IMG/VR virus record: IMGVR_UViG_2923307698_000008 | Length of the DNA stretch: 49,166 nt | Reading direction: 5' to 3' (one strand) | Source: a virus | Taxonomy: Duplodnaviria; Heunggongvirae; Uroviricota; Caudoviricetes | Shown here: in pieces, positions 24,001 through 27,000 of the stretch | How positions within the stretch are numbered: the first letter of the stretch is position 1 | How the letters are laid out: the number at the start of each line of letters is the position of its first letter | Program-made: the position numbers

Positions 24001-27000
24001 GCAAAAATACAGAACCCGGTGTCAATAAGTTTTCCTTTTGACACCTCATTTTTTAACTGCTGTGTAACAGCCTGTTCTGCTGTCAGTTCCCATCTGGCAA
24101 TAAGCAATTTTTCCTCATAGTCGTCTTCGCTATCGCCATCAGGCACATCGTTTTTACTTCTCCTCAGATACGATATGTAAAAATCGCGCCAGGCATCCAG
24201 ATCCAGTTGCCCTCGCTTATTCGATATCGGGGCACCCGGCAATTTCTGCAATCTGCGAAGCTGGCGATCGGTCAGACTTAAATGCCTGGCAACTTCAGTC
24301 TGCGTAGCCACTCCTCACCTCGCAAAAACTCTCACCTCACAATCACAACAAAACCGGTCATGTCCGGTTTACATGTCTGTTTTTTGTTCATGTCCGGTTC
24401 ACAGAAGACCTGTTTTTATATTTTTCATATAGTTAACTTGAAGAGAAACCGGACATGGATCCCGGAAAATTTTCATAAATAGCGAAAACCCGCGAGGTCG
24501 CCGCCCCGTAACCTGTCGGATCGCCGGAAAGGACCCGCAAAATGATAATAATTATCATCTACATGTCACAACGTGCATCTACGCCATCAAACCACGTCAA
24601 ATAATCAATTATGACGCAGGTATCGTATTAATTGATCTGCATCAACTTAACGTAAAAACAACTTCAGACAATACAAATCAGCGACACTGAATACGGGGCA
24701 ACCTCATGTCAACGAAGAACAGAACCCGCAGAACAACAACCCGCAACATCCGCTTTCCTAACCAAATGATTGAACAAATTAACATCGCTCTTGATCTGAA
24801 AGGTTCAGGTAATTTTTCAGCGTGGGTTATTGAAGCCTGCAGAAGAAGATTAATTAATGAAAAATATTCTCAATTTGTACCCAACAAAGACAAACACGAC
24901 CAGAGCACCTGTTCAGACAGGTTTACTTAAACGACTTATATATGACACAAAAAGCGACCACTAAAGTCGCTTTTTCTTATGGTAACAGGCAATAACTCTC
25001 TCAGATATTTTTTAGCATTTTTTTGACCGCGCGTTTCCGGACGTATTCTGTTCTCCTGTCCCTTTATATCGTCGGAATACCCGCCGCTCTTCAAATCCCA
25101 TTCCCAACTCAGAATGTAGTCTGTTGACCGCTTGTTTTATTTCGGTCAGGTTCACCGGTGAAACCGGAGTCCGGCGCGCCTTACGCAAACACTCTGCTCG
25201 TTTCTGTGCCGCCACTTTTCTTTTCTGGTCATCACTTAGCTGTACCATCACTTTTGCCCATCGTTCAGCTGCTCTCCGGTACAGTCCTTTTTTCTCTAGA
25301 CATTCTGCCACGTGATCATGTAGCATAAGTGACCTCCGATTATCTACAGACTGCCATCCTGAATTTACCTTCCCTTAATGAAATAACAATAAAAAACAAA
25401 CCACGCAAAAACAATAAAACAACACACAAAAAAAACTAAATAATAAACAAAAATAATCACCTTATTTTATTATTTTTTGAGGGAGCAATTACTGAACAAA
25501 AAACGCTGACTATATACTCAAAACCAAACAACTATTCTGCCAATCAGGTATCATGGCAACACACGGAATTACCATGTTTTTGCCTTCTCTGCCCATACAA
25601 TACGGGCATATACTTCATTCTCTATTGTAATATTTCTATCCATGTGCCCCACTCCATTTACCTGTAATAATATTCAAAATATTTATCACAGAAATCGTTT
25701 TTGGCCATGAACTGAGCACACTATAAAGTCCGGAACTGACTCTTTGTTAAATTACCTTAACGTTACCAGTAACACTTTCATAACAAAACATCACGGTATA
25801 CACTGGGTACGGATATATTCCTGTGCTCCTTCCAGTTGCTTCTGCATTGCCATCAGCCGTTCTCTGAGGATGAAATAATCCCGTTCAGCGGTGTCTGCCA
25901 GTCGGGGGCCGGTTGCATTATCCACGCCGGAGGTGCCGGTGGCTTCACGCACGGTACCGGAGCAGGTGGCGTTGATCCGCAGGCGCTTACGACCAGCGGC
26001 AACATCAGCACGCAGAGTTTCATTTTCAGCTCTCGCATCGGCTAATTCCCTCGAGTATCTGGCATCAAGTGCAGCGACATCACGCTGGCGTATCTGCATA
26101 TCAGTAATTGTCGCGTTCGCCAGCTCCAGCTCACTGGCTTTTTTATCGCGCTGCTCTTTGTAGATGATGGCGTGATCACGGTAATGATTCAGCCCCAGAC
26201 TAAGCGCACCACAGGCCACCAGCAGGACAATGATAACCACGCACAGAACACGGTTCATATCACCACCAACGGATTGCCCAGACCAGAACAGCAATGGCCA
26301 CAATACGAATGGCAAAAGCTGCCGCTCTTGTTAAATCCAGACTGGCTGGCGTCTCCACTTCAATGCCTTTCATAATGGACAACCTCAGAAAGAATCTTTT
26401 ATACTTCCTCACAGGGAAAGTACCTCCCTACCCATAATTTCTCCCTTGCCTTACTCAAGGTCAGAAAACACAAAACCCCGCTTGCTGCCAACAAACGGGG
26501 TTTTTACTTTTATTCACTTAGGTTTTACCAGTTTTCAGGATTTCGTGTTATCCACCCGCGTTGGCCAACGTCATTTTTCAGGAAAATATTCTGCTATCTG
26601 TCGATGTCCCAGCACGCCAGCGCGCTCTCCTGGTCACGCCGTGAGACCTGACCGTAGCAATTATTTGAACGGATACGGCAGTCTCTGCCACCGTCCTTAA
26701 TCCACCAGCGAATCGCCTCACAGGCACCTTTTCGATCGCCTGCATTAATTCGTTTATAAAACGTCGACGGGAAGCACTTACCGGGGCCAATGTTATACGG
26801 ACAGAATGACGCGATCCCCGCTTTCTGGGGTTCGGTCAGCGGCACCCGGATGTTTTTCTCCACCCATGCCAGCGCCTTGTCACGTTCGATGGCATTAACC
26901 CGGTCGCATTTTTCCTTTGACAGCTTCATGCCAGGAATAACAGGCTTACCATCCACCAGAATGGCACCACGGCAGATGGTCCAGATCCCCGCACCATCAC

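What the first reader, a model, noticed from the sequence alone, without database searches (positions are those of the whole stretch)
26260..26593. Spacer between endolysin and Rz holds a hairpin and a possible 37-aa membrane peptide gene
In lambda, R and Rz abut. Here about 330 bp separate them, containing a strong GC hairpin with U-runs on both strands and a hand-found ORF for a hydrophobic 37-aa peptide whose stop lies one base before the Rz ATG. This could be a remnant of a deleted gene or a small lysis-timing or membrane factor coupled to Rz.
Basis: seen in the sequence. Interest (0 to 1): 0.45.

Follow-up and report, generated by a model that had tools for sequence, protein, structure and literature searches.

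The report
Small membrane-protein gene before spanin Rz
The gap between the endolysin and Rz genes of this E. coli prophage is not junk: it holds a conserved transcription terminator and a real, selected gene for a tiny membrane protein of unknown function that many related prophages carry just in front of Rz.

Summary
The lysis genes lie on the minus strand, and 333-335 bp separate the endolysin (26594-27127) from Rz (25791-26258). The gap contains a 15-bp hairpin (26472-26504) with T-runs on both strands. It also contains an ORF whose TGA (26262-26260) sits one base before the Rz ATG.

The ORF is a genuine gene. It is annotated as hypothetical (Sakai ECs_1094, WP_000675931.1) and belongs to PHROG 4493/1115. 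It occurs in Escherichia, Salmonella and Cronobacter prophages. Nei-Gojobori dN/dS (pN/pS where dS is saturated) is 0.03-0.19 in this frame only.

The protein is probably 50 aa, starting at GTG 26412, rather than 37 aa. That start has the strongest ribosome-binding site in the cassette. The basic N-terminal extension is also conserved in divergent relatives that begin with a true ATG.

Terminator, leader and small gene move together as one cassette. The cassette sits behind five different upstream genes: four endolysin families and ant. It is followed almost always by Rz. Two unrelated small one-helix genes (PHROG 6632 and 4906) occupy the same slot in other prophages. Lambda, DLP12 and Qin lack the slot.

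The "remnant of a deleted gene" reading is not supported. The function is untested. The best guess is a late, Q-dependent inner-membrane accessory lysis factor translationally coupled to Rz. A conserved antisense promoter-like site leaves a type I toxin-like reading open.

The parts
26594..27127 (-). R21-type (SAR-like) phage lysozyme, the upstream neighbour of the spacer
   Evidence: PF00959, E 7.6e-24. RefSeq annotates it as lysozyme / rrrQ. Its ATG has no Shine-Dalgarno match.
26505..26593 (-). Conserved non-coding block directly 3' of the endolysin gene; it belongs to the endolysin module
   Evidence: It matches at 82-91% downstream of R in about 320 phage records, including ant-carrying Stx phages. 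No feature is annotated under it.
26462..26519 (.). Bidirectional intrinsic-terminator hairpin (stem 26472-26504), with T-runs at 26462-26471 (minus strand) and 26505-26519 (plus strand)
   Evidence: 15-bp stem; dG -21.8 kcal/mol, z = -4.5. A hairpin of the same design, with at least 6 different apical sequences, lies ~70-100 nt upstream of the small gene in every intact cassette of this family examined except the hybrid L094.
26409..26435 (-). 8-codon upstream ORF (MGREVLSL*). Its TGA overlaps GTG 26412 as GTGA, and it spans the hairpin AGGGAGG...TCCCT.
   Evidence: ATG preceded by AAGGGAG (dG -8.4). It is conserved in the window-type and Salmonella alleles. In the L075 type a 30-nt deletion fuses this ATG in frame to the main ORF. 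In the type B cassette the gene itself starts at this position. Translation is inferred.
26260..26412 (-). Small membrane-protein gene, long form (50 aa from GTG 26412): VRKYKRFFLRLSIMKGIEVETPASLDLTRAAAFAIRIVAIAVLVWAIRWW, with stop TGA at 26262-26260
   Evidence: PHROG 4493, E 1.4e-24 over residues 1-50. The SD AGGGAGGU at 26422-26429 gives dG -13.1, the strongest in the cassette. A GTG or ATG is kept at this codon in almost all alleles. Leader codons change synonymously or conservatively and show an in-frame 3-nt indel. The basic extension is conserved in divergent relatives that start with ATG. AlphaFold2 predicts helices 4-18 and 22-49, with pLDDT 91-94 over the C-terminal helix.
26260..26373 (-).
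   Evidence: It equals WP_000675931.1 and Sakai ECs_1094. dN/dS is 0.03-0.19 in this frame and 0.5-23 in the other sense frames. Variable columns by codon position are 14/1/27. The overlapping antisense frame loses its start codon and gains a stop in other alleles.
26376..26405 (+). Antisense sigma-70 promoter-like site, TGGACA-18-TATACT. It would start an RNA near 26412 that ends at the hairpin (~100 nt).
   Evidence: 10 of 12 matches. The site is at the homologous position in L005 (10/12) and in Salmonella L095 (TAGTCA-18-TATACT, 9/12). The leader is more conserved at the nucleotide level than synonymous sites of the ORF. Consensus match only; no expression data were found.
26260..26267 (-). 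Shine-Dalgarno sequence of Rz (GGUGGUGA), formed by the last codons (W W stop) of the small gene
   Evidence: Read directly from the sequence; dG -6.2. The motif is conserved in types A and B; type C uses GGGGTGA with a 7-nt gap.
25791..26258 (-). Rz i-spanin, with the Rz1 o-spanin embedded at 25853-26038
   Evidence: PF03245, E 8e-49, and PF06085, E 1.7e-21.

Best explanation
The spacer is a compact three-part cassette that is conserved and can move between phages.

1. A bidirectional Rho-independent terminator lies just after the endolysin module.
2. A ~100-nt leader follows. It carries a short upstream ORF and a very strong ribosome-binding site.
3. A gene for a small tail-anchored inner-membrane protein follows. 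It is probably 50 aa from GTG 26412, and 37 aa if it starts at the conserved internal ATG 26373. The last codons of this gene form the Rz ribosome-binding site, and its stop lies 1 nt before the Rz ATG.

The proposed workings are as follows. No sense-strand promoter lies between the terminator and the gene. The gene can therefore be transcribed only by Q-modified, terminator-resistant polymerase from the late promoter. It would be made together with Rz/Rz1 at the end of the lytic cycle. Ribosomes translating the upstream ORF would open the leader hairpin and re-initiate at GTGA. Ribosomes finishing the small gene would re-initiate on Rz. The peptide would insert with its basic N-terminus in the cytoplasm and act at the inner membrane as a non-essential accessory lysis factor. 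It could affect timing or act on the spanin or holin step.

Status of each step:
- Shown: the anatomy; protein-level selection; the co-inheritance of terminator, leader and gene; the position in front of Rz.
- Inferred: late-only expression, the two translational couplings, and the topology.
- Guessed: the accessory-lysis role.

Confidence by part: about 0.9 that this is a real, selected small membrane-protein gene; about 0.6 that the 50-aa form is made; about 0.35 that it acts in lysis. The overall figure of 0.5 is for the statement as a whole.
For: Selection. Window versus the L005 allele differs at 23 of 114 nt: 18.5 synonymous and 4.5 non-synonymous changes, all of them I/L/V swaps. This gives dN/dS 0.03. 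Other allele pairs and the 48-aa paralogue give dN/dS or pN/pS of 0.07-0.19. The other two sense frames give 0.5-23. The antisense frame that shares third codon positions is broken in other alleles.

Distribution. At least 80% of the cassette is present in 698 of 5426 complete E. coli genomes. Members occur in Salmonella, Cronobacter and Citrobacter, and in records labelled Yersinia. The family is narrow: only 35 clusters at 50% identity among 1.84 billion representative proteins.

Linkage. The cassette follows Phage_lysozyme, Peptidase_M15_4, GH19 and GH108 endolysins, and also ant. It occurs with four different holin families. PF03245 Rz is the downstream gene in the window and in L094, L096, L097, L098, L101 and L102. 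In 73 of 79 IMG/VR loci chosen by similarity to this Rz, a small hydrophobic ORF ends within 14 nt of the Rz ATG. Three unrelated families fill this slot, sometimes in tandem.

Terminator. It is present in nearly every cassette. The basal stem is conserved and the apical stems are different but still paired.

Long form. SD dG is -13.1. The start codon is conserved and the leader codons change in a coding pattern. Divergent members with an ATG start keep the motif xxY[KR][KR][IF][FL]R[LM]R[LI][ST]M.

Promoter. No sense-strand promoter-like site was found in 25700-27300.

Membrane helix. Hydropathy 2.1 over 19 residues. N-flank charge is +4 for the 50-aa form. AlphaFold2 helix 22-49 has pLDDT above 90.

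Non-essential. Lambda, DLP12 and Qin have R overlapping Rz with no such gene.
Against: - No expression or phenotype data were found for ECs_1094 or its relatives.
- The link to Rz is not absolute. In the M15-peptidase cassettes L005 and L089-91 the small gene is followed, with the same 1-nt gap, by a 60-aa lipoprotein. In L099 it sits at a prophage end after a tailspike gene.
- The Rz transmembrane segment is the same whichever small gene precedes it, so there is no sign of co-evolution.
- A type B relative in a Pseudomonas phage lies among tail genes, outside any lysis cassette.
- Some prophages carry frameshifted or start-less copies.
- Sequence constraints may partly explain the conserved features. 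The conserved C-terminal RWW may reflect the Rz ribosome-binding site rather than a need of the peptide. The leader is conserved at the nucleotide level beyond what coding requires, which hints at a second function.
Confidence: 0.5

Rival explanations
1. Type I toxin-antitoxin-like lock. The small hydrophobic peptide is membrane-toxic. A ~100-nt cis-antisense RNA would start at the plus-strand promoter (26376-26405, start near 26412) and end at the bidirectional terminator. It would pair with the leader, covering the upstream ORF and the strong ribosome-binding site of GTG 26412. This would silence leaky translation of the peptide, and of the coupled Rz, in lysogens.
For: - The promoter-like site TGGACA-18-TATACT is kept at the same place, with the same 18-nt spacer, in the divergent E. 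coli allele and in Salmonella.
- The -10 element is invariant, although it lies across codons whose third positions could vary.
- The in-frame 3-nt indel falls outside the promoter.
- The terminator has a good T-run in the antisense direction in all alleles, including L092, which has lost the sense T-run.
- The predicted plus-strand RNA folds into three hairpins (dG -26.6, z = -3.4).
- The geometry resembles SymR/SymE and Sok/Hok (my own knowledge).
- The type B cassette also has an antisense promoter-like site inside its ORF, pointing at the terminator.
Against: - Matches of 9-10 out of 12 are expected by chance at about 0.3-2 per region scanned.
- The three type A sites are homologous, so they are not independent observations.
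- The conservation is confounded by coding and ribosome-binding constraints.
- No Rfam family matches here.
- No structure other than the terminator is conserved in the leader.
- No hit in the EHEC transcription-start or Hfq-CRAC supplements searched.
- The toxin gene lacks the promoter of its own that type I toxins normally have.
- In tandem arrays, the second small gene has no room for an antisense unit of its own.
Confidence: 0.15
2. A moron unrelated to lysis. The small membrane proteins in this slot would serve the lysogen or phage competition (superinfection exclusion, defence or counter-defence). They would sit in front of Rz only because that junction tolerates insertions, as it does for ant.
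For: - The cassette is a self-contained module with sharp homology boundaries. The downstream boundary is about 8 nt into the next gene.
- It is found next to other genes: a lipoprotein and a tailspike.
- The slot is hypervariable. It holds three unrelated families, tandem copies, hybrids and remnants, a pattern typical of accessory or arms-race genes.
- The same junction carries ant in 933W-type phages.
- A type B relative lies among tail genes in a Pseudomonas phage.
- The GC content of the spacer is slightly lower than that of its neighbours.
Against: - There is a terminator upstream of the gene and no sense promoter after it, so expression in a lysogen is not expected.
- The tight 1-nt or 7-nt junction with Rz, with the Rz ribosome-binding site inside the small gene, is kept across families.
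- No match in PADLOC.
Confidence: 0.15
3. The peptide itself does nothing. The ORF matters only because translating it delivers ribosomes to Rz after the terminator-leader insertion broke the lambda-type R-Rz overlap.
For: - A 1-nt stop-start gap, with the Rz Shine-Dalgarno sequence inside the ORF.
- Unrelated ORFs fill the same position.
- In lambda, DLP12 and Qin, R itself overlaps Rz.
Against: - A pure coupling ORF would not keep its amino-acid sequence. Here dN/dS is 0.03-0.19 while synonymous sites are near saturation.
- The family is recognisable across genera and in two length classes.
- It persists where the downstream gene is not Rz.
Confidence: 0.05
4. The spacer is the scar of a deleted gene, for example ant, and the ORF and hairpin are chance features.
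For: Related Stx phages carry ant between R and Rz, and they share the first ~90 nt after R with the window.
Against: - No part of 26260-26500 matches ant or its flanks.
- In Salmonella L097 the cassette lies downstream of an intact ant gene.
- The hairpin and the ORF are both conserved, the ORF at the protein level.
Confidence: 0.03

Closest known systems
ECs_1094 of E. coli O157:H7 Sakai prophage Sp4 / WP_000675931.1 / PHROG 4493 (with PHROG 1115 and 3246)
   Same: The protein and the cassette are identical. The same neighbours are present: endolysin ECs_1096, Rz ECs_1092 and pchA.
   Different: Nothing differs in sequence. These records only say 'hypothetical protein' or 'unknown function', and they annotate the 37-aa form.
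Phage P2 LysA (an accessory membrane protein encoded between endolysin K and the spanin genes lysB/lysC; non-essential, affects lysis timing) - from my own knowledge
   Same: A non-essential membrane-protein gene placed between the endolysin and the i-spanin gene in a late lysis operon.
   Different: LysA is about 141 aa with several transmembrane segments. There is no sequence similarity, no upstream terminator and no 1-nt coupling to the spanin. No lysis phenotype is known for the window's gene.
Dual-start holin/antiholin genes (lambda S107/S105, phage 21 S71/S68) - from my own knowledge
   Same: A small late membrane protein has two conserved in-frame starts (GTG 26412 and ATG 26373). The longer product adds positive charge at the N-terminus.
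   Different: Here the starts are 13 codons apart, not 2-3. There is one helix, not two or three. No holin family matches. Use of both starts is unproven.
Type I toxin-antitoxin loci with a 5' cis-antisense RNA (hok/sok, symE/symR) - from my own knowledge; a true sok lies elsewhere in this window (35783-35957)
   Same: A hydrophobic peptide shorter than 60 aa; an upstream reading frame coupled to the main frame; a promoter-like site inside the 5' coding region pointing backwards; and a terminator that works in the antisense direction.
   Different: No Rfam match at this locus. The peptide gene has no promoter of its own. It is embedded in the late operon and coupled to Rz. The antisense RNA is hypothetical.
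The ant (antirepressor) insertion between R and Rz in 933W / Stx1-type phages
   Same: It uses the same R-Rz junction as an insertion site and shares the ~90-nt block after R. A small hydrophobic ORF (type C, PHROG 4906) still separates ant from Rz.
   Different: ant is a 189-aa cytoplasmic regulator. The window has no ant-derived sequence.

Membership tests
PHROG 4493/1115 small phage proteins (ECs_1094 family) | Significant match to the family profile over the whole length | tested here: met
   The 50-aa form matches PHROG 4493 at E 1.4e-24 (residues 1-50 on profile positions 1-54 of 56) and PHROG 1115 at E 2e-11. The 37-aa form gives E 5.5e-16.
PHROG 4493/1115 small phage proteins (ECs_1094 family) | Protein-level conservation among members (purifying selection) | tested here: met
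   Nei-Gojobori dN/dS (pN/pS where dS is saturated) is 0.03-0.19 in the annotated frame, and 0.5-23 in the other sense frames. The antisense frame is broken in other alleles.
Rho-independent (intrinsic) terminator | GC-rich stem-loop followed directly by a U-tract | tested here: met
   15-bp stem at 26472-26504, with a T-run on each strand. dG -21.8 kcal/mol, z = -4.5. The same design appears in at least 6 sequence variants.
Rho-independent (intrinsic) terminator | Stops ordinary RNA polymerase and is read through by Q-modified polymerase | not testable with these tools
   This needs in vitro or reporter termination assays with and without Q.
Type I toxin-antitoxin system | Small hydrophobic peptide of fewer than about 60 aa | tested here: met
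   37 or 50 aa, with a C-terminal helix of hydropathy 2.1.
Type I toxin-antitoxin system | An expressed antisense RNA overlapping the toxin mRNA | tested here: inconclusive
   A conserved promoter-like site and an antisense-competent terminator are present. Such matches are near chance frequency. There is no Rfam hit and no hit in the two supplements searched.
Type I toxin-antitoxin system | The toxin gene has its own promoter | tested here: not met
   No sense-strand promoter-like site in 25700-27300, and a terminator lies directly upstream.
Holin / antiholin | Match to a holin family profile | tested here: not met
   No Pfam, NCBIfam or PHROG lysis-category match. The cassette's holin is the separate PF04971 gene at 27815-28021.
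Holin / antiholin | Controls the timing of lysis | not testable with these tools
   This needs lysis curves of a knock-out after induction.
Two-component spanin operon (Rz/Rz1) | i-spanin gene with an embedded o-spanin lipoprotein gene directly downstream | tested here: met
   PF03245 at 25791-26258 and PF06085 at 25853-26038. The small gene is not itself a spanin, because it has no periplasmic domain.
Remnant of ant or another deleted gene | Nucleotide or protein similarity of the spacer to a known gene | tested here: not met
   A distant blastn search against 50,697 phage records matched 26260-26437 only in phage GER2, which carries the same small gene and no ant. Beyond that, only the terminator and the non-coding block after R match. 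There is no ant similarity.

The most novel reading that the evidence does not exclude
Many enterobacterial lambdoid phages carry a fifth, so far unrecognised component of the lysis cassette. It is a slot in front of Rz, guarded by a terminator, that holds interchangeable tiny tail-anchored membrane proteins. The ECs_1094 family in this slot would be made in two isoforms from a dual start. It would be held in check in lysogens by a cis-antisense small RNA, and it would tune the last steps of lysis (spanin or holin action) or act as a membrane toxin.
Probability: 0.15. Interest if true: 0.7.

Novelty: new variant of a known kind. Interest (0 to 1): 0.45.

Why it matters
The lambda-type lysis cassette (holin, endolysin, Rz/Rz1) is one of the best-understood gene sets in phage biology. 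The same cassette controls Shiga-toxin release from EHEC prophages. A conserved, selected extra gene sits inside that cassette in roughly one in eight complete E. coli genomes, including O157:H7 Sakai, and no function is recorded for it. That is a concrete gap in knowledge, and it is easy to test. If the gene alters lysis timing or spanin action, it would affect burst size and toxin release. If it is a regulated membrane toxin, it would add a new family of small proteins. The finding also shows that current annotation probably uses the wrong start codon, and that several phage records leave this slot unannotated.

Tried and rejected
- **RNA families.** Rfam at a permissive threshold over 24500-28500 gave only a chance rimP-leader match on the terminator (E 0.63). 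Rfam at gathering threshold over the whole window found nothing at this locus.
- **Protein and structure libraries.** Pfam, NCBIfam, PADLOC and PDB gave no match for any of the small proteins.
- **Literature.** Searches on spanins, small ORFs, lysis cassettes, anti-spanins, WP_000675931 and ECs1094 found no description of the gene.
- **Sakai ribosome-profiling supplements.** ECs1094 is not listed among the translated small genes. Those cultures were uninduced, so this is not informative.
- **EHEC transcription-start and Hfq-CRAC supplements.** No hit by sequence or locus tag.
- **Conserved leader RNA structure.** RNAalifold on 11 alleles, both strands, kept only the terminator.
- **Co-variation of the Rz transmembrane segment with the type of small gene.** None; the Rz N-terminus is constant.
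- **GTDB genome scan with Rz.** Only 4 loci came back, and 3 of them look like lambda contamination.
- **The plus-strand 47-aa ORF (26294-26437) as the real gene.** Rejected: in other alleles its Met is lost and a stop appears.
- **The K-12 small proteins YnfR/YnfQ/YnfS as relatives.** Qin has no spacer at all.
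Full report
**1. What is in the sequence**

The window is a lambdoid prophage whose late genes run on the minus strand. The lysis genes are:
- an S21-type pinholin (27815-28021, PF04971);
- an R21-type lysozyme (26594-27127, PF00959);
- Rz (25791-26258, PF03245);
- the embedded Rz1 (25853-26038, PF06085).

Between the endolysin stop and the Rz ATG lie 335 bp (26259-26593).
- The hairpin is at 26472-26504. It is a 15-bp stem on a conserved AAAACCCCG/CGGGGTTTT base, with a T-run after it on both strands.
- It folds far better than shuffled sequence: -21.8 kcal/mol with z = -4.5 on the minus strand, and -14.2 kcal/mol with z = -3.5 on the plus strand.
- The 37-codon ORF runs from ATG 26373 to TGA 26262-26260. 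One base separates the stop from the Rz ATG at 26258. The codons W-W-stop (GGTGGTGA) form the Rz Shine-Dalgarno sequence.

In lambda, DLP12 and Qin, the R gene overlaps Rz by 4 nt and there is no spacer.

**2. The ORF is a real gene**

RefSeq already annotates it as a hypothetical protein, WP_000675931.1. In O157:H7 Sakai it is ECs_1094 in prophage Sp4, between endolysin ECs_1096 and Rz ECs_1092. It matches PHROG 4493 and 1115, both of unknown function. It has no match in Pfam, NCBIfam, PADLOC or the PDB.

At least 80% of the cassette is present in 698 of 5426 complete E. coli genomes.

The decisive test is the substitution pattern.
- The window allele and the divergent allele of phage phiSTEC1575-Stx2k (L005) differ at 23 of 114 nt. 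Of these, 18.5 are synonymous and 4.5 non-synonymous, and the latter are all I/L/V exchanges. This gives dN/dS 0.03.
- Other pairs give dN/dS, or pN/pS where dS is saturated, of 0.07-0.19. These include a Cronobacter allele and the E. coli and Salmonella copies of a 48-aa paralogue.
- The two other sense frames give 0.5-23.
- Variable alignment columns fall 14/1/27 on codon positions 1/2/3.
- One antisense frame shares third positions with the gene and contains a 47-aa plus-strand ORF. In other alleles that ORF loses its Met and acquires a stop.

**3. The protein is probably 50 aa, not 37**

The frame is open back to GTG 26412. Four lines of evidence favour that start.
- Its Shine-Dalgarno sequence (AGGGAGGU, 26422-26429) pairs with the anti-SD at -13.1 kcal/mol. 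That is the strongest in the cassette. The value for ATG 26373 is -6.3.
- A GTG or ATG is kept at this codon in the window type, the L005 type, Cronobacter, Salmonella and the E. coli 48-aa type. The exceptions are L092 and the hybrid L094.
- Between the two gene types, the 12-13 leader codons differ by synonymous changes (AGA/CGA, CTG/TTG, AGG/AGA), conservative changes (F/I, F/L, S/T) and an in-frame 3-nt indel.
- Members from other 50%-identity clusters begin with ATG and keep the motif x-x-Y-[KR]-[KR]-[IF]-[FL]-R-[LM]-R-[LI]-[ST]-M ahead of the conserved M-K-x-G-L-E-x-x-A-P core.

The product would be VRKYKRFFLRLSIMKGIEVETPASLDLTRAAAFAIRIVAIAVLVWAIRWW. It has a basic N-terminal helix, an acidic linker and a hydrophobic helix that runs to the C-terminus. 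The N-terminal flank carries a net charge of +4. AlphaFold2 predicts helices 4-18 and 22-49, with pLDDT 91-94 on the second.

The internal Met (ATG 26373) and its GAGG are also conserved, so two isoforms are possible. This is inference.

An 8-codon upstream ORF (26435-26409) starts behind AAGGGAG. It spans the hairpin that sequesters the strong SD and ends in GTGA over the GTG start. In the E. coli 48/60-aa type, a 30-nt deletion fuses that ATG directly to the gene. In the unrelated type B cassette, the gene itself starts at the same place. This looks like termination-reinitiation coupling, but it is inferred.

**4. The hairpin belongs to the small gene, and the three parts travel together**

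A hairpin of the same design lies ~70-100 nt upstream of the small gene in every intact cassette of this family examined, except the hybrid L094. The design is an A-run, a CCCCG stem and a T-run. There are at least six different apical sequences, and each is fully paired.

The cassette (terminator, leader, gene) is found behind four endolysin families and behind ant:
- R21-type lysozymes;
- Peptidase_M15_4 endolysins;
- a GH19 endolysin;
- GH108 endolysins;
- an intact ant gene.

It occurs alongside four holin families. In contrast, the ~90 nt directly after R (26505-26593) go with the endolysin. That block is shared with some 320 phage records, including ant-carrying Stx phages, and no feature is annotated under it.

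Downstream, homology ends about 8 nt into the next gene. That gene is nearly always PF03245 Rz. In the M15 cassettes of L005 and L089-91 it is instead a 60-aa lipoprotein that starts with the same MNR or MAR codons. In a Cronobacter prophage end nothing follows.

**5. The slot in front of Rz**

I examined 79 IMG/VR loci picked by similarity to this Rz. Many are near-identical prophages, so they are not independent. In 73 of them a small hydrophobic ORF ends within 14 nt of the Rz ATG.

Three unrelated families fill the slot:
- the ECs_1094 family (37/50 aa and 48/60 aa forms, plus a 28-aa truncated form);
- type B, MFDFSKLIREIRVMAEKLSTWKFILIWLVFVIMASGYFIGQIRWW (PHROG 6632);
- type C, MSDKLITLAKILCVIVGISFSLMLVAICFSTAWRVLTLSWLVG (PHROG 4906). 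This is the one that separates ant from Rz in 933W-type phages.

All are of unknown function. Tandem arrays, hybrids, remnants and frameshifted copies occur. Several phage records leave the slot unannotated. The Rz transmembrane segment is the same whichever gene precedes it.

**6. How it most likely works**

- **Shown:** the anatomy, the selection on the peptide, and the linkage of terminator, leader and gene.
- **Inferred:** late-only expression, translational coupling to Rz, and topology.
  - Expression. No sense promoter-like site lies between the terminator and the gene. The gene should therefore be transcribed only by Q-modified polymerase that ignores the terminator, which means late and together with Rz/Rz1.
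  - Coupling. The 1-nt stop-start gap should couple Rz translation to the small gene.
  - Topology. The positive N-terminus should stay in the cytoplasm, with the helix in the inner membrane.
- **Guessed:** the peptide is a dispensable accessory lysis factor. Its position is like that of P2 LysA. Its two-start design is like a holin/antiholin pair.

**7. Rival explanations**

- **Antisense RNA / type I toxin-like lock (0.15).** A plus-strand promoter-like site (TGGACA-18-TATACT, 26376-26405) is kept at the same position and spacing in the divergent E. coli allele and in Salmonella. The 36 nt that hold it are invariant within each gene type, while the ORF's synonymous sites are near saturation. 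The RNA would start at about 26412, run antisense over the upstream ORF and the strong SD, and stop at the bidirectional terminator. Against this: such matches occur near chance frequency. No Rfam family, conserved leader structure or published start site supports it. The peptide gene also has no promoter of its own.
- **Moron unrelated to lysis (0.15).** The slot's variability fits this, as do the lipoprotein and tailspike neighbours and a type B relative among the tail genes of a Pseudomonas phage. The upstream terminator and the tight junction with Rz argue against it.
- **Coupling-only ORF (0.05).** The amino-acid conservation contradicts this reading.
- **Scar of a deleted gene (0.03).** The lack of any ant similarity contradicts this reading.

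**8. Comparison with what is known, and novelty**

The gene is a member of the ECs_1094 / PHROG 4493-1115 family, both by profile match and by selection. The hairpin meets the sequence definition of an intrinsic terminator.

The locus fails one defining feature of type I toxin systems, because the toxin gene has no promoter of its own. It matches no holin family. Membership in either class is therefore not claimed, although the locus may work like one of them.

I found no paper that mentions the gene or the slot, within the limits of the library searched. I rate it a new variant of a known kind: a lambdoid lysis cassette with an extra, terminator-preceded small-membrane-protein gene. Interest is moderate, because the feature is real, widespread and untested, but nothing yet shows an unusual mechanism.

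Noticed in passing
window 27100-27815 (ORF 27245/27287-27559, + strand): An AT-rich (GC 0.35-0.40) ~690-bp insert separates the pinholin from the endolysin. It carries an opposite-strand ORF (RefSeq hypothetical WP_000138558.1; PHROG 1853, unknown function). The endolysin ATG at 27127 has no Shine-Dalgarno match (dG +0.2).
   Followed up: partly
window 35783-35957 (-): An Rfam sok antitoxin match (107 bits, gathering score 59). This indicates a genuine hok/sok type I toxin-antitoxin locus elsewhere in the same prophage.
   Followed up: no
window 30542-30732 (-), 30809-31058 (-), 44717-44768 (+): STnc100 sRNA lies just downstream of three tRNA genes (Met-CAT, Arg-TCG, Arg-TCT) at the site where Stx phages carry stx. 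This prophage has no stx there. A DicF sRNA gene lies in the early region.
   Followed up: no
window 15533-15649 (+): An ALIL pseudoknot (the IS3-family frameshift signal; 120 bits) lies inside the morphogenesis region. An insertion sequence therefore interrupts the structural genes, so the prophage may be defective.
   Followed up: no
window 25012-25326 (-) and 25327-25790: A 104-aa PerC family gene lies directly downstream of Rz. It occupies the same position as pchA (ECs_1091, a transcriptional regulator) in Sakai Sp4. A very AT-rich region (GC 0.23-0.38) precedes it. In Sakai Sp4 this whole lysis-pchA segment is inverted relative to the rest of the prophage and is flanked by IS629 and ISEc8.
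   Followed up: partly
L005 2649-2831; L089 1616-1798: In the cassettes with holin_8 + holin_3_7 + Peptidase_M15_4, the small gene is followed at a 1-nt gap by a 60-aa predicted lipoprotein instead of Rz. Its sequence is MARKHWTHRMPRAAAKWALVAILVPFLLVGC... (PHROG 7528, unknown function). These loci show no recognisable Rz/Rz1.
   Followed up: partly
L109 (Salmonella phage SPN3UB) 1543-1939; L006 1861-2034: Several deposited phage genomes leave the endolysin-Rz gap unannotated, although it encodes a type B small protein (PHROG 6632) that is 67-98% identical to the query.
   Followed up: partly
L108 (Pseudomonas phage YMC11/02/R656) 1998-2144: A 48-aa protein about 50% identical to the type B small protein lies among tail genes, not in a lysis cassette. 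The match may be inflated by hydrophobic composition.
   Followed up: no
L105, L106, L107: Contigs labelled as Bacillota or Collinsella metagenome-assembled genomes encode an Rz with the lambda/DLP12-type N-terminus (MSRVTAIISALV...). They are probably lambda or E. coli contamination in those bins.
   Followed up: no
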